15,118 nt of DNA from Synergistaceae bacterium (GTDB lineage Bacteria; Synergistota; Synergistia; Synergistales; Aminobacteriaceae), in contig JAITGK010000150.1 in assembly GCA_031280635.1 (NCBI GenBank), positions 1 to 15,118 on the forward strand, given 5' to 3'. A program made the position numbers and the translations under genes. The notes below the pieces were generated by a model that did no database searches, was not told the origin of the DNA, and was given only the letters and a program-made list of their open reading frames with translations. The stretch's first letter is position 1. Each line of letters opens with the position of its first letter. Positions 1-15,118 of the stretch are shown piece by piece.

Positions 1-118
1 TGTGGCCCTGTGGCCCTGTGGCCCTGTGGCCCTGTGGCCCTGTGGCCCTGTGGCCCTGTGGCCCTGTGGCCCTGTGGCCCTGTGGCCCTGTGGCCCTGTG
101 GCCCTGTGGCCCTGTGGC
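1..118. repeat. Tandem 8-bp microsatellite (TGTGGCCC)n, ~14 perfect units, running off the window start
   Basis: Direct reading: tgtggccc repeats head-to-tail from base 1 to 112, then a degenerate tgtggcaa. The six-frame ORF 18..242 is just the in-frame translation of the repeat (VALWPCGP iterated), not a gene. Confidence 0.95.
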
Positions 119-420
119 AATTATATCGGATTCTTTGGGCGATCACATCCGTAAAATTCACTATTTTCATCTCATTCCCATAAAAACTTTCATGTTTCCC
201 CGAAACGGAAATTTCAAAGAAAGCTCAAAAACTTATGGGTAAGTTTACTTGATTTTTTCAAAAAAGCAAGACCAGTGAGTTTCGTAGGCAAACGCGTGAG
301 TCCTACGCTGAATCATTGCCGCAAAAGCAATAGCAGTTGTGATAAACTGCTCACTAATCCTTGCGGCGCATGGATTTTCCCTTGAAATAATCCTTACTTG
401 AGCCGCGCTCTCAATCAGCT

Positions 421-514
421 TATAGTGGCTTGCGTAATCACGGCGCGGAAATCAGAGACCAAAAACCGGACATAAATAGCAAAAACTTTGCGAAGAAAAG
501 AGCCAACCGCTATA
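421..514 (+). repeat. Intergenic repeat element, type I copy A (~95 bp), directly 3' of the Crp-family gene
   Basis: About 90% identical to 2085..2180 and to the reverse complement of 10981..11078. Starts tatagtggcttgcgtaatcacggcgcggaaatcagagacc and ends aaaagagccaaccgctata. Confidence 0.85.
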
Positions 515-521
515 ATCACGA

Positions 522-1184
522 TTATCGCGCATCATTGAAAAGTTCAAAGTGACTACGCTGATAGCGCAAGAGTCCTTCGTCTTTCATTCTCGACAACTCG
601 GCGGACATAGCGCTCCTGTCCACCGACAGGTAGTCCGCCAGTTCCTGACGGTTAAACGGTATGTCGAAAGCGTTTCCTCCTGTTAGTTTCGCCCGCTCGG
701 ATAAGTACGACAGCAATTTCTCCCGAGTAGTGCGCTGGGTAACGTGCTCCAGCTTCCGCGTTAGCATAACATTCTTTTCCGCCAATATTCGTGTCAGATT
801 GTAGATCAGCGCCGTATGGAAGTCGCGGAACGACGGACAAGCCGTGAGTATACGCTTGCAGTTCATCAGCAGGATTTCAGCTTCCTCAACGGTCGCTACA
901 CTGACCGGCAAATTCTTGACTCCCGCGCAGGCGAAGGCCTCCCCAAACAACCCACCAGATTCAACACGAGCCAAAATCGACCGGTTCCCCCAAAAATCCT
1001 CGCGCAGCACATGAATCGCTCCAGAAAGCACAATACCTACCGAATCGGCTTTATCCCCCGCCCTGAATATGAAGCCATTCTTCTCGAAACGCTTCTGAAC
1101 GGCGGACAGACAACCCAGTAGCCTCCGCAAATCAGCCTCCCCGATCCCGGCGAACAAAGGGCAAGTTCCCAAAGTCGAATCCAT
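522..1184 (-). CDS. Crp/Fnr-family transcriptional regulator (N-terminal cNMP-binding-like domain, C-terminal HTH)
   Basis: The 220-aa ORF has the family-typical layout: a beta-roll effector domain (GDKADSVGIVLSGAIHVLREDFWGNRSIL..GGLFGE) followed by a C-terminal HTH (TREKLLSYLSE...FDIPFNRQELADYLSVDRSAMSAELSRMKDEGLL). AGGAGGT lies 5 nt upstream of the ATG. Confidence 0.85.
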   Translation of the reverse strand: MDSTLGTCPLFAGIGEADLRRLLGCLSAVQKRFEKNGFIFRAGDKADSVGIVLSGAIHVLREDFWGNRSILARVESGGLFGEAFACAGVKNLPVSVATVEEAEILLMNCKRILTACPSFRDFHTALIYNLTRILAEKNVMLTRKLEHVTQRTTREKLLSYLSERAKLTGGNAFDIPFNRQELADYLSVDRSAMSAELSRMKDEGLLRYQRSHFELFNDAR

Positions 1185-1270: not shown

Positions 1271-2026
1271 ATGATACGAAAAATCATCAAGATTGACGAA
1301 GATAAGTGCGATGGGTGCGGACTGTGCGCCACCGCCTGCCACGAGTCCGCAATAGGCGTAGTGAACGGCAAAGCGAAACTCTTGAGGGACGATTACTGCG
1401 ACGGGCTGGGAAACTGCCTTCCCGCCTGCCCCACGAGAGCTATTTTTTTCGAGGAACGGGAAGCCGCGGAGTACGACGAGGAAGCTGTGAAGAAAAATAT
1501 CAAGGAAAAGAAAAAGACGGCGGCGAAAGGTGGCTGTCCCGGTTCCAACGCCCATACTATTCAGCGAGAAACTTCCCAGGCGTCAGGTAAAATGGCGATT
1601 ACCAGCCGCCTGAATCAATGGCCGATACAGATCAGGCTCGTGCCAATCAACGCGCCGTATTTTGAGAACGCGAACCTGTTGGTATCGGCGGACTGCTGCG
1701 CTTATGCCCAAGGCAATTTTCACGAGGAGTTCATGCGTAACAAGATCACTCTCATTGGTTGCTCCAAGCTGGACAATGTGGATTACAGCGAGAAATTGAC
1801 GGAGATCATCGCGCGCAACAACATCAAATCCGTTACAGTGGTAAGAATGGAAGTCCCCTGTTGCGGGGGCATCGAAAATGCCGCGAAGACCGCGCTTAAG
1901 AATTCCGGCAAGAGTCTCGGAGCCAAGATGATTCCCTGGCGAGTGATCACTCTGTCTACCGGTGGTGAGGTGTTGGAAGACTTTCATAGCGGATTGCGTA
2001 ATTGTGAACACCAAAATAGCGTGTAA
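1271..2026 (+). CDS. Iron-sulfur protein: N-terminal 2x[4Fe-4S] ferredoxin domain fused to a Cys-rich C-terminal domain resembling the MvhD/FlpD hydrogenase delta-subunit family
   Basis: CDGCGLCATAC and CDGLGNCLPACP cluster motifs occur at residues 13-55, followed by a Lys/Glu-rich linker. The C-terminal ~150 aa carry ADCCAY, GCSKLD and VPCCGG motifs that follow the MvhD pattern (hydrophobic-CxxCsY ... mCSgR ... C-C). AGGGAGG lies 8 nt upstream of the ATG. The last ~15 codons come from a repeat element (see 1980..2068). Confidence 0.75.
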   Translation: MIRKIIKIDEDKCDGCGLCATACHESAIGVVNGKAKLLRDDYCDGLGNCLPACPTRAIFFEEREAAEYDEEAVKKNIKEKKKTAAKGGCPGSNAHTIQRETSQASGKMAITSRLNQWPIQIRLVPINAPYFENANLLVSADCCAYAQGNFHEEFMRNKITLIGCSKLDNVDYSEKLTEIIARNNIKSVTVVRMEVPCCGGIENAAKTALKNSGKSLGAKMIPWRVITLSTGGEVLEDFHSGLRNCEHQNSV

Positions 2027-2068
2027 AAAGCAGCTACCGCAAAAGTTTTGTTCATAAAAGAGCCAATG
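1980..2068 (+). repeat. Intergenic repeat element, type II variant (~88 bp), overlapping the 3' end of the ferredoxin CDS
   Basis: Begins catagcggattgcgtaat and ends aaaagagccaatggcccc. The middle (agcgtgtaaaaag...cgcaaaagtttt) matches the 14469..14556 copy. Its termini match those of the type I copies. Confidence 0.6.
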
Positions 2069-2084
2069 GCCCCAGGGTGTGTTT

Positions 2085-2180
2085 TATAGTGGATTGCGTA
2101 ATCACGGCGCGGAAATCAGAGACCAAAAACCTGATATAAACACGGCAAAAACTTTGCGCGGAAAAGAGCCAACGGCTCTA
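2085..2180 (+). repeat. Intergenic repeat element, type I copy B (~96 bp), interrupted/abutted at its 3' end by the IS
   Basis: tatagtggattgcgtaatcacggcgcggaaatcagagaccaaaaacctgatataaacacggcaaaaactttgcgcggaaaagagccaacggctcta. Contains the internal direct repeat GCGCGGAAAtcAGAG / GCGCGGAAAagAGCC and a terminal hairpin AGAGCC-aac-GGCTCT. Confidence 0.85.
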
Positions 2181-2190
2181 GATACTGTCG

Positions 2191-2676
2191 TCACGAGACG
2201 CCGACCCAGAGAGCGACGCGTCTGATACGCGCGGCGGCTAGAAACAATGAGGTGTTTTTCGCGTACCTTGTGGCAATCCCTCGCCAGCGTTTTAAATATA
2301 AAAAAGCGTTTTCAACCAGATGCCTGAGTTTATATAAATATTCGTCATACCGCCGAGGCTCCTTACGCTTCCTCTTCGGCGGTATAACTACCCACATACC
2401 GGCTTCTTTCGCTTCGTTGATAATTCCGCCTCTATCATAAGCGCGATCCGCTATAAGATTTTCAGCGTCTATGCCGCCAATCAGAGCCGCGGCCTGAGCG
2501 CGGTCAGCTCCGGTACCTTCTGTAATATGCATTCTGACTGGCATACCATGCGCGTCCACGGCCGAATGTATCTTTGTGTTGAGCCCCCTTTTGTAACGCT
2601 CATATCCTGATTCCCTCCTCTCGCTCCCGTCGCGTGAGGGTGAACCTTGACGCGCGAGGCGTCTATCATCAGCCAC
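2191..2676 (-). CDS. IS5-family transposase OrfB (DDE catalytic C-terminal part), probably expressed as an OrfAB fusion by a -1 frameshift
   Basis: LNTKIHSAVDAHGMPVRMHITEGTGADRAQAAALIGGIDAENLIADRAYD...LKRWRGIATRYAK is typical IS5-family DDE transposase C-terminus. It overlaps orfA by ~195 nt in the -1 frame. An A4G5 tract on the minus strand (plus coordinates 2584..2592) is the likely slippage site. Confidence 0.75.
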   Translation of the reverse strand: MADDRRLARQGSPSRDGSERRESGYERYKRGLNTKIHSAVDAHGMPVRMHITEGTGADRAQAAALIGGIDAENLIADRAYDRGGIINEAKEAGMWVVIPPKRKRKEPRRYDEYLYKLRHLVENAFLYLKRWRGIATRYAKNTSLFLAAARIRRVALWVGVS

Positions 2677-2954
2677 TCAAAGTCCGGCTCAGTTATCAGC
2701 CGCTCCAGCGGGGACTCCCATATTCCCTTGTCCCTCCATCGGCAATAGCGGCGGCGCTTGGTTTTCCTGCCGCCGTAATCTGGCGGCAGGTCGCGCCAGG
2801 GCGCTCCGGCGCGTAAAATCCAGAATACAGCGTTAATGAACAGTCTGTTATCTCTGACTTTCCCTCCCCATGCGCCCTCCCTGCCGGGAAAGCGCGGCAC
2901 CAGAAGGTTCCAGACTCTGTCTGATATATCGTGGCGGTGACGCGCGTTATCCAT
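2481..2954 (-). CDS. IS5-family transposase OrfA (N-terminal DUF4096-like part)
   Basis: MDNARHRHDISDRVWNLLVPRFPGREGAWGGKVRDNRLFINAVFWILRAGAPWRDLPPDYGG...RWRDKGIW is the conserved N-terminal module of IS5/IS427-group transposases. RBS GGGGGAG lies 6 nt upstream. Confidence 0.8.
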   Translation of the reverse strand: MDNARHRHDISDRVWNLLVPRFPGREGAWGGKVRDNRLFINAVFWILRAGAPWRDLPPDYGGRKTKRRRYCRWRDKGIWESPLERLITEPDFEWLMIDASRVKVHPHATGARGGNQDMSVTKGGSTQRYIRPWTRMVCQSECILQKVPELTALRPRL

Positions 2955-3049
2955 ATATTACTCCCCCTGCGCTGTTGTATTTTATGGAGAGATAATAACA
3001 TGATAAATGTCTCGTGACGACAGTATCTAGGTTTTCAGCAGCGGCACAA

Positions 3050-3604
3050 ATGAGCGACGGGACAGGTAAAGGCGGCGCGCTTCTGGCGCTGGATTGTAGT
3101 TTGAAGCGGACCAACGCCGCCGTTCTCTCGCTTTCGGAAGGCGAATTGTTGGCGGTGAAACGGCTTGACATCGGGCGGCGGCAAGTGGTGGAACTCCCCT
3201 TAGCCATGGAGGGCCTCCTTGCCGAGACGGGGAGGAGCTTCGGAGACTTGGGGCTTGTGGCCGTGACCAACGGCCCCGGCTACTTTACGGGTATCCGCGT
3301 GGGAGTCTCTTACGGGGCAGCGCTGGCCCACGGGTTGGGCCTGAAAATCGCGCCGGCCTTCACACTTCACATGCTGACTTTCCCCTGGCTCTCTCAAGCC
3401 AAGACCGTCCTCGTTTTCGCCGATCCCCCCTATAACCAGGGTTGGGGGAAAACGCTGCCTCACACAAACGACCTGGAAAAAATCCTGAAGCGAGACGGGG
3501 TGCTGGTGATGGAATACTCAGCGCGGGAGGCGCTTGATGTCCCCCCCGGTTTGGGTCGTAACGAACACCTGCGCCTACCGCGAGACGGTCGAATGAAAAA
3601 GTAA
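3050..3604 (+). CDS. tsaB: tRNA threonylcarbamoyladenosine biosynthesis protein TsaB (YeaZ family), short form; start uncertain (in-frame ATG at 3014 lies inside the IS inverted repeat)
   Basis: ALLALDCS...AVLSLSEGELLAVKRLDIGRRQVVELPLAMEGLLAETGRSFGDLGLVAVTNGPGYFTGIRVGVSYGAALAHGLGLKIAPAFTLHMLT matches the YeaZ/TsaB core (ILAIDTS..., GRGPGSFTG[IV]RIG). VLVFADPPYNQGW aligns to the VLAAIDARMGEVYW region. The 184-aa length is at the short end for the family. Confidence 0.6.
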   Translation: MSDGTGKGGALLALDCSLKRTNAAVLSLSEGELLAVKRLDIGRRQVVELPLAMEGLLAETGRSFGDLGLVAVTNGPGYFTGIRVGVSYGAALAHGLGLKIAPAFTLHMLTFPWLSQAKTVLVFADPPYNQGWGKTLPHTNDLEKILKRDGVLVMEYSAREALDVPPGLGRNEHLRLPRDGRMKK

Positions 3605-4221: not shown

Positions 4222-4289
4222 TGGACTTGTTTATTTCCCAATTTTAACCTTATAGCGGGTTGCGGTAATGCTAGTATCCGCAAATCCCC

Positions 4290-4317
4290 TATAATGAAAG
4301 GCAATTCATAAAGGAGG
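4290..4317 (+). promoter_or_regulatory. TATAAT -10 box and AAAGGAGG RBS upstream of the Cdc48-like ATPase gene
   Basis: TATAAT lies at 4290..4295. AAAGGAGG at 4310..4317 ends 8 nt before the ATG at 4326. The upstream motif tatagcgggttgcggtaat (4248..4266) resembles the repeat-element 5' end. Confidence 0.45.
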
Positions 4318-4325
4318 AGTTAGGC

Positions 4326-6452
4326 ATGTTCAAGGTAAAAGAGGCCAGCACGGGCGACGCGCACAAGGGCATAGCGCGGATGGACGTCGCCGACATGGCG
4401 ATACTGGGCCTGTCCGAGGGGCAGATCGCCGAAATCTCCGGGAAGAAGACCACCGCCGCCCGTGTCCACGCGCTGAACCCGTCCGATGGGGAGAACTCCG
4501 GGAAGCGCTTCCTCCAAATCGACGGACTGATTCGCGAGAACGCCGTTGTCCTGTTGGAGGACACAGTGACGGTTAGGCGCGCGGAACATCATTTCGCTGG
4601 CAGCGTCACTTTACAACCCCTCACCTCCACCGCCCTGACAGACAAGGAGCGCGACGCGCCCTACATCCTGTCGCTGATGGAGGGTATGCCCCTCACAGCA
4701 GGCGACCGGGTACGGCTCAACCTCTTCGGAACGCGCGTCTGCGACTTCCGCGTGACGGAGACCACGCCGGAGGGAGCCGTGGTGGTCAGCAAGGTCACGT
4801 ATCTGAACCTTTTGAAGAACGCCAAGATCGCTCAGCCGAAAAAAATTTCCTACGAGGACATCGGCGGCCTGGGTTCCCAGATACGCCACATCCGCGAGAT
4901 GATCGAGCTGCCTCTGCGCTTCCCTCAGGTGTTTGAGCGACTGGGCATCCAGCCCCCCAAGGGCGTGTTGCTCTATGGCCCCCCTGGTACGGGCAAAACG
5001 GTCATCGCCCGCGCCGTGGCTAACGAGACCGACGCCTGGTTCACCCACATCTCCGGCCCGGAGATCATCGGGAAGTTCTATGGTGAAAGCGAGGAACGTC
5101 TGCGCAACATCTTCGAGGAGGCCCAGTCCCGCGCGCCATCCATCGTATTCATCGACGAGATCGACGCCATTGCCCCCAAACGGGAGGACATGGGTGGGGA
5201 AAAGCAAGTGGAGCGCCGAGTGGTGGCCCAACTCCTGGCCCTGATGGACGGCCTAGAGTCCCGCGGGCAAATTGTGGTCATCGGCGCGACCAACATCCCC
5301 AACTCCCTGGACCCGGCCCTGCGCCGTCCAGGACGCTTCGACCGCGAGATCTCCATTCCCATCCCCGACCGCAAGGGGCGATACGAAATTCTCCAAATTC
5401 ACACGCGGGGAATGCCCCTGGCCCAGGAGTCTGGAGCGGACGCGGTGGACTTGAAGCGAGTGGCCGATCTTTCCCACGGATTTGTGGGCGCGGACCTGGA
5501 GGTCCTGGCCAAGGAAGCGGCCATGGCCTGCGTGCGCGACGTTCTGCCTCACGTAAACCTCCAGACCCAGGAGATACCCTACGAGAAAGTCTCGACTCTG
5601 GAGGTGAGAATGAGCCACTTCATGTCCGCCCTGATGGAAATAGAGCCCTCCGCCATACGCGAGGTTTTTGTGGAGATACCAGACGTGACCTGGAACGACG
5701 TGGGCGGTTTGGACGCCGTCAAGGAAGAGCTCGTCAACGCCGTTCAGTGGCCCTTGCAGAGGCCGGAACTCTTTGAGCGCTACGCCATTCAGCCGCCTAA
5801 GGGGATTTTGCTGCATGGCCCATCGGGCACGGGGAAAACGCTGCTGGCTAAGGCTCTAGCCAAGGAGAGCGGAATCAACTTCATCTCGGTGAAGGGCCCA
5901 TCTCTGATGTCAAAGTACGTAGGCGAGTCGGAGCGGGCCATCCGTGAGGTGTTCCGCACGGCGAAACAGGCGGCCCCGTCGATTCTCTATTTCGACGAGA
6001 TCGAAACCCTGGTTCCCGTGCGGGGGCGTGACGCAGGCGGCGCGGCGGCCTTTACGGAGCGGGTCATCGGGCAGTTCCTGGCGGAGATGAGCGGCATTGA
6101 GGAGCTGACCGGCGTGGTGGTTCTAGCCACCACCAATCGGGTCGATTTGGTAGATCCAGCGCTTCTGACCGCGGGGCGCTTCGATCTGGTGCTAGAGCTT
6201 CCCCTGCCCGACCCGGCCGCGCGGGAGGCAATCTTCGGTATCGAACTGCGCAAAAAACCCCTGGCGTCCGACGTGGACGTGAAGGAACTGGCGCGTCTGA
6301 CCGAGGGACGTAGCGGCGCGGACATCGCCTTCGTCTGCCGCAAGGCTGCCATGCTGGCCCTGCGCGAGCGATTTTCTCAGGACATGGCGGAGTTTCACGT
6401 GGGTCGGGAACACTTCAACGCCGCGCTCTCATTGATCGCGCTCCGACGCTAG
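4326..6452 (+). CDS. Cdc48/VAT-type AAA+ ATPase (CDC48 N-domain plus tandem D1 and D2 AAA modules)
   Basis: The 708-aa product has an N-terminal double-psi-barrel-like region ([36 protein letters not shown]). It has two Walker A sites (GPPGTGKT at D1, GPSGTGKT at D2) and Walker B sites ([17 protein letters not shown]). SRH/arginine-finger regions ([23 protein letters not shown]) are present. Confidence 0.9.
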
Positions 6453-14556: not shown

Positions 14557-15118
14557 AGAAATTATATTTTTTAAAGTGAAAATCCAAAAAATCTATTCTA
14601 TTATAGCAGATCGCGTAAATTTTGAACATATGGCGTTTTTCATAATCATACACAGAAATAAGAGGCTAAAAACCAGACCTCAATGACTATCGGCCAAAAC
14701 CGGTAGGTTAAATAGCTAATAACAACAACTTAAGCGTTTATGAGTGGGATTTCCTGTTGTGATGATACTTAGCTCTCCTCGAAGTAAGCAACCTTTCCAC
14801 AAAACGTCCCGGCCGTATGGGCACGACGGATTTTTCAATCTCAATGGCAATAATATCCAAAGCGCGAAGACGCTCCTCTGTTGAGGTCAACAGGATGCCG
14901 CGAGATGAGCCCGGAGTGTCGCGATAATCTGGTTCAAATTGGCCGCGTACTCGTATTTGTTATCTTTGCCGGCGCGTTTCTTTCGTATGGCCATGTTGGC
15001 TTCGCCTTTAGAGCTCCTAACATAACCCACCTGTTTGGGCCTTCAGGCTATAAAGCAATTTTTATAAATGCAGTATTTCAAAGTAAACTTTATCAAGATA
15101 GCATGGTTATGATAGATA

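What the first reader, a model, noticed from the sequence alone, without database searches (positions are those of the whole stretch)
1980..2068. Repeat element supplies the 3' end (last ~15 codons and stop) of the ferredoxin/MvhD-like CDS
The motif catagcggattgcgtaat that opens every repeat copy starts at 1980 inside the ORF, where it encodes ...HSGLRNCEHQNSV*. The type II element continues past the stop and is followed 17 bp later by a full type I copy. This suggests an element insertion replaced the native C-terminus of the Fe-S protein, remodelling the gene.
Basis: partly seen in the sequence, partly recalled or inferred. Interest (0 to 1): 0.55.

Follow-up and report, generated by a model that had tools for sequence, protein, structure and literature searches.

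The report
Mobile repeat extends ferredoxin gene's end
A roughly 90-base mobile-looking repeat sits on the stop codon of an iron-sulfur protein gene in an uncultured Synergistaceae bacterium, so the last 13 amino acids and the stop come from the repeat; this is real, but it is a known kind of event.

Summary
A 90-nt repeat copy ("D", 1985-2074, + strand) begins inside CDS 1271..2026. It encodes residues 239-251 (HSGLRNCEHQNSV) and the stop codon TAA at 2024-2026.

- **Family membership.** A profile built only from copies in other metagenome contigs finds D at E = 9e-13, along with four other full copies in the window.
- **Unique tail.** All 119 homologues (64-80% identical) end at the position of query residues 235-239. 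None carries the tail.
- **Nature of the repeat.** It looks like a MITE: 88-115 nt, imperfect 14-nt terminal inverted repeats, TA at both ends (CA/CA in D), and both orientations. Copy C in the pyrB-pyrC spacer is absent from four orthologous loci.
- **Other genes affected.** Elsewhere, copies supply the stop codon of real genes (a GNAT, a GT9) or lie 0-5 nt from stop codons.
- **Resemblance to Correia elements.** The first 11 nt of two window copies equal the Neisseria Correia repeat terminus. The full Correia repeat is not matched.

The conserved protein is complete; the insertion displaced the stop codon and at most 4 residues, adding a short tail. The same effect is documented for Coxiella QMITEs. 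I rate it a new member of a known kind, of modest interest.

The parts
1271..2026 (+). CDS of a 251-aa 4Fe-4S dicluster protein (N-terminal 2x[4Fe-4S] domain plus a Cys-rich C-terminal domain). It is divergent from a Crp/Fnr regulator gene (522..1184, - strand).
   Evidence: ORF and translation. Pfam Fer4 families. The protein is 100% identical to a database protein named '4Fe-4S binding protein [Synergistaceae bacterium]' on a 15118-nt contig. The crp-fd divergent pair is conserved in L001, L002, L126 and L127.
1271..1984 (+). Host-derived part of the CDS (M1-F238). It covers the whole region shared with homologues, whose proteins end at the equivalent of residues 235-239.
   Evidence: Alignment A1. 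End positions of 119 homologues. DNA ends of orthologues: GAG GAT TAG, GAA GAT TGA, GAT CAA TAA, GAC TGG TAA.
1985..2074 (+). Repeat copy D ('type II' subfamily, 90 nt), written CA|TAGCGGATTGCGTAAT...AAAGAGCCAATGGCCC|CA. Its first 42 nt (1985-2026) are read as codons 239-251 plus the stop.
   Evidence: nhmmer with an external-only model gives E = 9.4e-13 at 1984-2072. Family alignment. Flank table. The middle part is shared with copy E (1996-2029 vs 14479-14512, 79% identity).
2024..2026 (+). Stop codon TAA of the CDS. It lies in the subfamily-specific middle of copy D (AGCGTGTAAAAA, also present in copy E).
2085..2180 (+). Repeat copy B ('type I', 96 nt), 10 nt downstream of copy D.
   Evidence: nhmmer E = 4.9e-14..
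2178..3030 (-). IS5-family insertion sequence with perfect 22-nt terminal inverted repeats. Its transposase is split over two frames. It is inserted in the terminal CTAG of copy B.
   Evidence: Inverted repeat I8. PF13340 and PF01609. NF033580 IS5 family transposase on both ORFs.
421..514 (+). Repeat copy A (type I, 94 nt). Its 3' end lies 7 nt (5 nt if the adjacent conserved AT, 515-516, is counted with the element) from the stop codon of the convergent crp gene.
   Evidence: (E = 5.1e-11).
10981..11078 (-). Repeat copy C (type I, 98 nt), lying between the pyrB stop codon (TAA directly abuts TATAGCGG) and the pyrC ribosome-binding site. It is absent from four orthologous loci.
   Evidence: (E = 8e-13).
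14469..14556 (+). Repeat copy E (type II, 88 nt), in the same subfamily as copy D.
   Evidence: (E = 2.4e-10).
14602..14700 (+). Degenerate or rearranged copy F. It has a 5' end motif at 14602, and a second 5' half at 14629-14685 that lacks the 3' end.
   Evidence: E = 0.0023.

Best explanation
Copy D belongs to a family of short (88-115 nt), non-coding, MITE-like mobile repeats carried by uncultured Synergistaceae. The family has conserved ends (5' TA|TAGCGGTTTGCGTAATC ... CATAAAAGAGCCAACGGCTC|TA 3') that form imperfect terminal inverted repeats, and a variable middle.

Copy D inserted, in forward orientation, at the very end of the 4Fe-4S protein gene. The insertion separated the last native codon(s) from the native stop codon. 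Translation now runs on in the frame (C/T)AT AGC GGN TTG CGT AAT... for 13 codons, until the first in-frame stop inside the element (TAA, 2024-2026).

Shown:
- D is a family member.
- The family occurs in many unrelated contexts and in both orientations.
- A sister copy is an insertion relative to orthologous loci.
- The tail is absent from all homologues.
- The conserved protein is otherwise intact.

Inferred:
- The flanking dinucleotide is a target duplication (TA, here CA, as reported for Correia elements).
- The preferred target is T-TA-A/G, which contains stop codons. This would explain why copies sit on or beside stop codons.
- The native end was either ...LEDF-TAG (insertion into the stop codon) or ...LEDFQGVF-TAG (insertion 4 codons before the stop).

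The likely outcome is a tolerated, probably unstructured 13-residue tail. Nothing here indicates a new function.
For: - **Family is real.** The motif occurs 5 times against 0.03 expected. The window holds 5 full copies plus partial ones. A metagenome scan found 7 further loci (5 distinct) with the same ends and different middles. Two more copies lie in L128.
- **Independent profile.** The external-only model hits D at E = 9.4e-13.
- **Inverted-repeat ends.** The consensus ends TTATAGCGGTTTGC and the reverse complement TTAGAGCCGTTGGC match at 11 of 14 positions.
- **Terminal dinucleotides.** All 13 distinct copies are bounded by TA...TA, except D with CA...CA.
- **Insertion status.** The pyrB-pyrC spacer is 115 nt with copy C, against 12-28 nt (82 nt in L124) in four loci with 88-90% identical PyrB. 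The empty site reads GGA TAA GGGGGA; the filled site reads GGA TAA|TATAGCGG...GGCTCTAA|GGAAGGA.
- **Absence in relatives.** No copy was found in about 60 kb of those relatives, nor downstream of fd in L001, L002, L126 or L127.
- **Tail is unique.** 119 of 119 homologues end at the equivalent of residues 235-239.
- **Same effect elsewhere.** A GNAT gene (L114) ends in the element's 5' TAG. A GT9 gene (L116) ends in the reverse-complement TAG of the 3' end. The pyrB, crp and L128 glycosyltransferase genes stop 0-5 nt from a copy.
- **Reading frame.** In forward orientation the frame TAT AGC GG... stays open, often through the whole element. In reverse orientation TA+G regenerates a stop codon.
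- **Precedent.** Coxiella QMITE1 and QMITE2 overlap the 3' ends of functional genes by 1-50 bp, including a 42-bp overlap and a 33-aa EnhC extension (PMC5896051). Correia elements insert at TA and sometimes at CA, giving CA termini (PMC2649163).
Against: - No strain-level empty site exists for the fd locus itself. The closest orthologues are only 76-80% identical, so the exact pre-insertion sequence is a reconstruction.
- TA is palindromic, so a target duplication cannot be told apart from the outermost bases of the inverted repeats.
- The pyrB-pyrC comparison fits a simple TA duplication only if the window lineage had TAATAA there.
- The inverted repeats are short and imperfect, and only copy A folds end to end.
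- No autonomous element with the same ends was found, and transposition was not demonstrated.
- The contig comes from a metagenome assembly, and read support for the junction was not checked.
- The structural model of the protein is too poor (mean pLDDT 55) to say anything about the tail.
Confidence: 0.8

Rival explanations
1. Assembly chimera. The metagenome assembler joined the fd gene to a repeat copy that lies elsewhere in the genome, so the extended ORF does not exist in the organism.
For: The window is a 15-kb MAG contig. It is rich in repeats, contains an IS, ends in a tandem repeat, and carries a chimeric-looking TsaB/RsmD ORF next to the IS.
Against: A mis-join through a repeat swaps what lies beyond the repeat, not the boundary where unique sequence meets the element's first base. 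Here the gene-element junction is exactly at the element's terminus. Copy D is also distinct in sequence from every other copy in the window; the nearest, copy E, is 79% identical over 34 nt. That leaves little repeat identity to mislead an assembler.
Confidence: 0.05
2. The repeat is not mobile DNA but a functional RNA or regulatory module, such as a terminator, attenuator or small RNA, placed at gene ends. Its overlap with the CDS would then be a by-product of that role.
For: - A 6-bp hairpin AGAGCC-AAC-GGCTCT is conserved at the 3' end, with one compensatory change (ATAGCC/GGCTAT in L118b).
- On the reverse strand this hairpin is followed by TTTT(A).
- Copies cluster at gene ends.
- Promoter-like hexamers use the element ends in copy A.
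Against: - There is no Rfam match.
- Copies occur in both orientations relative to flanking genes.
- The middle is not conserved, and RNAalifold finds only 9 pairs.
- Window copies fold no better than shuffled sequence, with z from -0.5 to -0.9.
- The terminator scan did not pick these hairpins up.
- Copy C is an insertion inside the pyr operon that relatives do without.
Confidence: 0.1
3. The gene is decaying. The lost stop codon is one step in pseudogenisation, and the extended product is non-functional or degraded.
For: The locus is hit three times (copies D and B, then the IS). The neighbouring tsaB looks truncated or fused.
Against: The reading frame is intact over 238 codons. All 82 columns that are invariant across 26 sequences, including every Cys motif, are kept. 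The extension is short, and comparable MITE-derived tails are found on functional Coxiella genes.
Confidence: 0.05

Closest known systems
Coxiella burnetii QMITE1 / QMITE2 (PMC5896051)
   Same: These are short non-autonomous repeats whose copies overlap the 3' ends of functional genes by 1-50 bp. They supply stop codons or C-terminal residues: pntAA has a 42-bp overlap, and Dugway EnhC has a 33-aa extension with the stop just after it. QMITE2 loci are also hot-spots for IS insertion. Here an IS5-family element sits in the end of copy B.
   Different: The sequences are unrelated, the host phylum differs, and QMITE2 forms a much more stable stem. The QMITE work rests on complete genomes and strain comparisons, whereas this case rests on one MAG contig and scattered metagenome contigs.
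Neisseria Correia repeat-enclosed elements (CREE/NEMIS) (PMC5039591, PMC2649163, PMC10969869)
   Same: The size class is similar (about 100-155 bp against 88-115 nt). Both have terminal inverted repeats starting TATAG. The first 11 nt, TATAGTGGATT, are identical in window copies A and B. Correia elements insert at TA, occasionally at CA, which gives CA termini, as seen in copy D. They lie close to or inside coding sequences, and no cognate transposase is known.
   Different: Beyond nucleotide 11 the 26-bp Correia repeat is not matched. By my own count, the family consensus TATAGCGGTTTGCG... agrees at about 12 of 26 positions. The inverted repeats here are only about 14 nt and imperfect. The host is Synergistaceae, not Neisseria. 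IHF sites, promoters and RNase III processing were not tested.
Rickettsia palindromic elements (RPE) and enterobacterial ERIC/RU elements inside genes (PMC10969869, PMC2759123)
   Same: Small repeats carrying an open frame that become translated as part of host proteins.
   Different: RPEs insert in-frame in the middle of genes and add an internal peptide. Here the element sits at the extreme 3' end and supplies the stop codon.

Membership tests
Bacterial MITE (miniature inverted-repeat transposable element) | Short (tens to a few hundred bp) with no transposase gene | tested here: met
   Copies are 88-115 nt from end to end. The only open frames are 30-45 codons with no database relatives.
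Bacterial MITE (miniature inverted-repeat transposable element) | Multiple dispersed copies in unrelated genomic contexts | tested here: met
   There are 5 full copies plus 1-2 partial ones in 15 kb of the window. A further 8 distinct copies lie on other metagenome contigs, next to unrelated genes and in both orientations.
Bacterial MITE (miniature inverted-repeat transposable element) | Terminal inverted repeats | tested here: met
   The consensus ends match at 11 of 14 positions as inverted repeats (TTATAGCGGTTTGC against the reverse complement TTAGAGCCGTTGGC). Copy A pairs 9 of 9 at its tips. The repeats are short and imperfect.
Bacterial MITE (miniature inverted-repeat transposable element) | Target-site duplication | tested here: inconclusive
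   TA bounds 12 of 13 copies and CA...CA bounds D. The matching CA pair argues for a duplication. TA is palindromic, however, and the pyrB-pyrC empty site fits TA, TAA or no duplication.
Bacterial MITE (miniature inverted-repeat transposable element) | Presence/absence at orthologous sites (evidence of insertion) | tested here: met
   Copy C is missing from four orthologous pyrB-pyrC junctions. Copies D and B are missing downstream of fd in four orthologous loci at 76-80% protein identity.
Bacterial MITE (miniature inverted-repeat transposable element) | An autonomous IS with the same ends that could mobilise it | not tested
   The IS5-family element in the window has unrelated ends (GATACTGTCGTCACGAGAC).
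Correia repeat-enclosed element (Neisseria) | The 26-bp Correia inverted repeat (tatagtggattaacaaaaaccggtacgg and variants) at both ends | tested here: not met
   Only the first 11 nt are identical, and only in copies A and B. The rest diverges, and the 3' end is a different sequence.
Correia repeat-enclosed element (Neisseria) | Insertion at TA (sometimes CA) with duplication | tested here: inconclusive
   The TA...TA and CA...CA termini are compatible. The caveat is the same as for the MITE target-duplication row.
Correia repeat-enclosed element (Neisseria) | Internal IHF site, outward promoters, RNase III-cleavable hairpin of paired ends | not testable with these tools
   Only consensus hexamer matches were seen in copy A. 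End-to-end pairing is weak in most copies.
REP / REPIN elements | Short G+C-rich imperfect palindrome forming a stable stem-loop, usually in inverted pairs, associated with a RAYT transposase | tested here: not met
   Folding energies of the window copies are within 1 sd of shuffled sequence. The only conserved stem has 6 bp.
Known structured RNA family (Rfam) | Match to a curated covariance model | tested here: not met
   There is no hit on any copy at E <= 1.
   The Pfam scan at E <= 0.001 lists only 4Fe-4S families on residues 5-83. The precomputed annotation adds PF27217 (AF_0155).

The most novel reading that the evidence does not exclude
The family could be a cross-phylum relative of the Neisseria Correia elements, with the same terminal bases and the same TA/CA target choice. 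It could also have a built-in preference for T-TA-A/G sites, that is, for stop codons. Because one of its frames stays open through the element, forward insertions would then systematically add peptide tails to proteins, while reverse insertions would regenerate a TAG stop. If so, Synergistaceae genomes rich in this element might reveal the still unknown transposase class that moves Correia-type elements.
Probability: 0.1. Interest if true: 0.6.

Novelty: new member of a known kind. Interest (0 to 1): 0.3.

Why it matters
The finding documents a previously undescribed MITE-like repeat family in uncultured Synergistaceae; at least one of the related contigs comes from a higher-termite gut metagenome. 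It gives a clean example of a mobile repeat rewriting the 3' end of a conserved redox-protein gene.

In practice it is a caution for annotation. The 251-aa '4Fe-4S binding protein' model is correct as an ORF, but its last 13 residues are repeat-derived and should not be used as family signal.

The phenomenon itself, MITEs supplying stop codons and C-terminal tails, is already described in Coxiella, Rickettsia and enterobacteria. The conceptual gain is therefore small, unless the link to Correia elements or a true stop-codon preference proves real.

Tried and rejected
- **Genome-collection scan.** The 17-nt 5' motif returned more than 111 unrelated genomes, each with a single chance match, and no Synergistaceae among those listed.
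- **Viral-contig scans.** The 3' and 5' motifs gave one chance match (L121, with no 5' motif nearby) and nothing, respectively.
- **Peptide-profile search.** A profile of the element's open-frame peptides was searched against the protein database to look for other repeat-derived protein tails. It gave one weak hit, a 44-aa ORF called inside a copy. That was useful only because it led to two more copies. The search needs shared 5-residue words, so this negative is weak.
- **Rfam.** No family matched the repeats.
- **RNA or ssDNA structure.** Beyond a 6-bp hairpin there is no conserved structure, and the copies are no more stable than shuffled sequence.
- **AlphaFold model.** The 251-aa protein with 26 aligned sequences gave mean pLDDT 55 and pTM 0.39. 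That is too poor to judge whether the tail is exposed, so no fold search was run.
- **Resemblance in L001.** The sequence after the L001 stop (TAGCGGGCTTG) resembles the element's start. I rejected it as chance, because that stretch encodes the C-terminus of a convergent DAGK gene.
- **The IS5-family element as parent of the repeat.** I rejected this because its ends are unrelated.
- **Crp C-terminus.** The comparison was uninformative, because the orthologue tails vary.

Full report
**What is in the sequence**

The window is a complete 15118-nt contig of a Synergistaceae MAG. The protein of ORF 1271..2026 is 100% identical to a database entry named '4Fe-4S binding protein [Synergistaceae bacterium]', whose longest contig is 15118 nt. 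The ORF encodes 251 aa ending ...GGEVLEDFHSGLRNCEHQNSV*. Its N-terminus matches the 4Fe-4S dicluster families. It is transcribed divergently from a Crp/Fnr-type regulator gene at 522..1184. That gene pair is conserved in four related loci.

With up to 3 mismatches it occurs 5 times in the window, against 0.03 expected from shuffles.

**The repeat family**

Repeat finding and alignment give five full copies in the window:
- A, 421-514 (+)
- B, 2085-2180 (+)
- C, 10981-11078 (-)
- D, 1985-2074 (+)
- E, 14469-14556 (+)

There is also a rearranged copy F (14602-14700) and a weak short relic near 4250. Copies A, B and C share one middle ('type I'). Copies D and E share another ('type II').

A metagenome scan used a pattern combining the 5' motif, a gap and the 3' motif. 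It returned 7 loci, 5 of them distinct, from other samples. All have nearly identical ends, TTTATAGCGGTTTGCGTAATC...CATAAAAGAGCCAACGGCTCTAA, and different middles of about 50 nt. Three more copies turned up in L118 and L128. L129 duplicates part of L128 and comes from sample 3300010369, a higher-termite gut metagenome according to PMC7800795.

A profile built only from the external copies finds D at 1984-2072 with E = 9.4e-13. It finds B, C, A and E with E between 5e-14 and 2e-10. Copy D is therefore a genuine family member, and the family is not confined to this contig.

**What kind of element it is**

- Copies are 88-115 nt long and encode nothing recognisable.
- The consensus ends are imperfect inverted repeats matching at 11 of 14 positions.
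- Every one of the 13 distinct copies is bounded by TA at both ends. Copy D is the exception, bounded by CA at both ends.
- Copies occur in both orientations relative to neighbouring genes, and between co-directional, convergent and divergent genes.
- No Rfam family matches.
- The only conserved pairing is a 6-bp hairpin, AGAGCC-AAC-GGCTCT, at the 3' end, with one compensatory variant.
- The window copies fold no better than shuffled sequence.

Direct evidence for insertion comes from copy C. It lies in the pyr operon between pyrB and pyrC. Four loci whose PyrB is 88-90% identical (L122-L125) have a 12-28 nt spacer (82 nt of unrelated G+C-rich sequence in L124). That spacer reads GGA TAA GGGGGA...ATG. 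The window reads GGA TAA|TATAGCGG...GGCTCTAA|GGAAGGA...ATG, with a 115-nt spacer. Those relatives carry no copy in about 60 kb.

I therefore call the element MITE-like. Three points remain open:
- TA, being palindromic, cannot be proven to be a target duplication.
- No autonomous partner was found.
- The IS5-family element at 2178-3030 has unrelated ends. It is a separate event that landed in the terminal CTAG of copy B.

**The effect on the gene**

In an alignment with 25 homologues (70-80% identical), all end at ...GEILED, give or take one residue. This corresponds to query D237. Across all 119 listed homologues, the end falls at the equivalent of query residues 235-239 and never beyond.

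At the DNA level, orthologues end GAG GAT TAG, GAA GAT TGA, GAT CAA TAA and GAC TGG TAA. None is followed by a repeat copy. The window gene keeps every invariant residue of the family.

Residues 239-251 and the stop TAA (2024-2026) are therefore element-derived. The stop lies in the type II-specific middle, AGCGTGTAAAAA, which is shared with copy E. The conserved protein is complete, so this is an extension and not a replacement of a conserved C-terminus.

**How it probably happened (inference)**

If one flanking dinucleotide per copy belongs to the host, removing D, B and the IS leaves a natural stop under either of two readings.
1. The native protein would end ...LEDF, with a TA target inside the stop codon and later T-to-C changes at both ends of D. 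D's 3' end carries two more transitions: the family's GGCTCTAAGG reads GGCCCCAGGG in D (four transitions in all, counting the terminal T).
2. The second reading gives GAC TTT CAG GGT GTG TTT TAG. The native protein would end ...LEDFQGVF, with a CA target in codon 239. The native stop would be the TA where copy B now sits.

Reading 1 fits the homologues' lengths better. Reading 2 explains the matched CA...CA with one event. It also has a precedent: Correia elements usually insert at TA but sometimes at CA, leaving CA termini (PMC2649163). If no base belonged to the host, the pre-insertion gene would have had no nearby stop. That argues for a duplication.

Taking one TA per copy as host sequence, the reconstructed target is TTAA in 7 of 13 copies and TTAG in one more; D gives T-CA-G as it stands. 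These tetranucleotides contain stop codons. In forward orientation an insertion into a stop codon's TA gives TAT AGC GG..., which is exactly D's frame. That frame is open through the whole element in six copies. In reverse orientation TA+G regenerates a TAG stop.

This matches what is seen elsewhere:
- A GNAT gene in L114 ends in the element's 5' TAG.
- A GT9 gene in L116 ends in the reverse-complement TAG of the 3' end.
- The pyrB, crp and an L128 glycosyltransferase gene stop 0-5 nt from a copy.

Whether this pattern reflects target choice or simply survival of harmless insertions was not tested.

**Comparison with known systems**

The closest functional parallel is Coxiella burnetii QMITE1 and QMITE2. 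All affected functional genes there carry the insertion at their 3' ends, with overlaps of 1-50 bp (42 bp in pntAA). EnhC of strain Dugway gains 33 residues from a QMITE2. QMITE2 loci also attract IS1111 (PMC5896051). In-frame MITE insertions are also known for Rickettsia RPEs and enterobacterial repeats (PMC10969869; PMC2759123).

In sequence, the first 11 nt of copies A and B (TATAGTGGATT) equal the start of the 26-bp Neisseria Correia repeat (PMC5039591), and the TA/CA termini match Correia behaviour. The rest of the Correia repeat is not matched, and the family consensus differs at two of those 11 positions. The element therefore fails membership of the Correia family. The resemblance is a lead only.

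**Rivals**

- An assembly chimera is unlikely. The junction lies at the element's first base, and D is unlike the other copies.
- A regulatory RNA or terminator module is weakly supported by the conserved hairpin and the position at gene ends. It is contradicted by the two orientations, the variable middle, the lack of folding signal and the clean absence in relatives.
- Pseudogenisation cannot be excluded, but nothing in the 238 conserved codons suggests it.
- The AlphaFold model (mean pLDDT 55, tail below 30) is too weak to use.

**Verdict**

This is a new member (a new MITE-like family in Synergistaceae) of a well-known kind of event. Interest is modest.

Noticed in passing
window 1-118: A perfect tandem array of the octamer TGTGGCCC (about 14 copies) runs off the 5' end of the contig. 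It could be a contingency-type simple repeat or simply the place where assembly broke.
   Followed up: no
window 14310-14403: A tandem array of the heptamer CCTGGCT (about 13 copies) lies in the intergenic region upstream of the ankyrin-repeat gene (13067..14224, - strand), next to repeat copies E and F.
   Followed up: no
window 3050-3604 (+): This ORF looks like a fusion. Residues 11-125 match the first half of TsaB (TIGR03725 positions 1-115 of 212). The C-terminal 70 residues contain an ADPPY motif and weakly match the RsmD family (PF03602, E = 5.6e-4, below its cut-off). It starts 20 nt after the IS, so it may reflect a deletion, a rearrangement or a mis-assembly.
   Followed up: partly
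window 2178-3030 (-): An IS5-family element with perfect 22-nt inverted repeats is inserted exactly in the terminal CTAG of repeat copy B. Its transposase is split over two overlapping frames (2481..2954 and 2191..2676), which indicates either a programmed frameshift or decay.
   Followed up: partly
window 12666-12778 (-): A PyrR-binding attenuator (RF00515) scores 50.5 bits, just under the 54-bit gathering score. A terminator-like hairpin lies at 12707-12671. The site sits at the head of the pyrR-pyrB-pyrC-pyrF operon that carries repeat copy C.
   Followed up: no
window 4250-4296 (+): A short palindromic relic, TTATAGCGGGTTGCGG-12 nt-CCGCAAATCCCCTATAA, resembles two element 5' ends facing each other. 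It lies about 30 nt upstream of the CDC48-like AAA ATPase gene (4326..6452). It has only a weak profile hit (E about 0.5).
   Followed up: no
window 488-516 (+) and 398-426 (+): Two sigma-70-like hexamer pairs use the ends of copy A. One is TTGCGA-17-TATAAT, reading out of the 3' end (10 of 12 matches). The other is TTGAGC-17-TATAGT, whose -10 box is the element's 5' end. This recalls the promoters at Correia ends, but these are consensus matches only.
   Followed up: no
L124 2945-3026: In one relative the pyrB-pyrC spacer holds an unrelated 82-nt G+C-rich insert with hairpin potential (GGGGGGGGCC...GCCCCCCTGAGC) instead of the repeat. The same spacer seems to accept different inserts in different lineages.
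   Followed up: no
L122-L125 (PyrB relatives P0124, P0128, P0132, P0135, P0136): PyrB proteins 88-90% identical to the window's differ by a variable 5-10 residue insertion just before ...[10 protein letters not shown]. The window protein has the short form.
   Followed up: no
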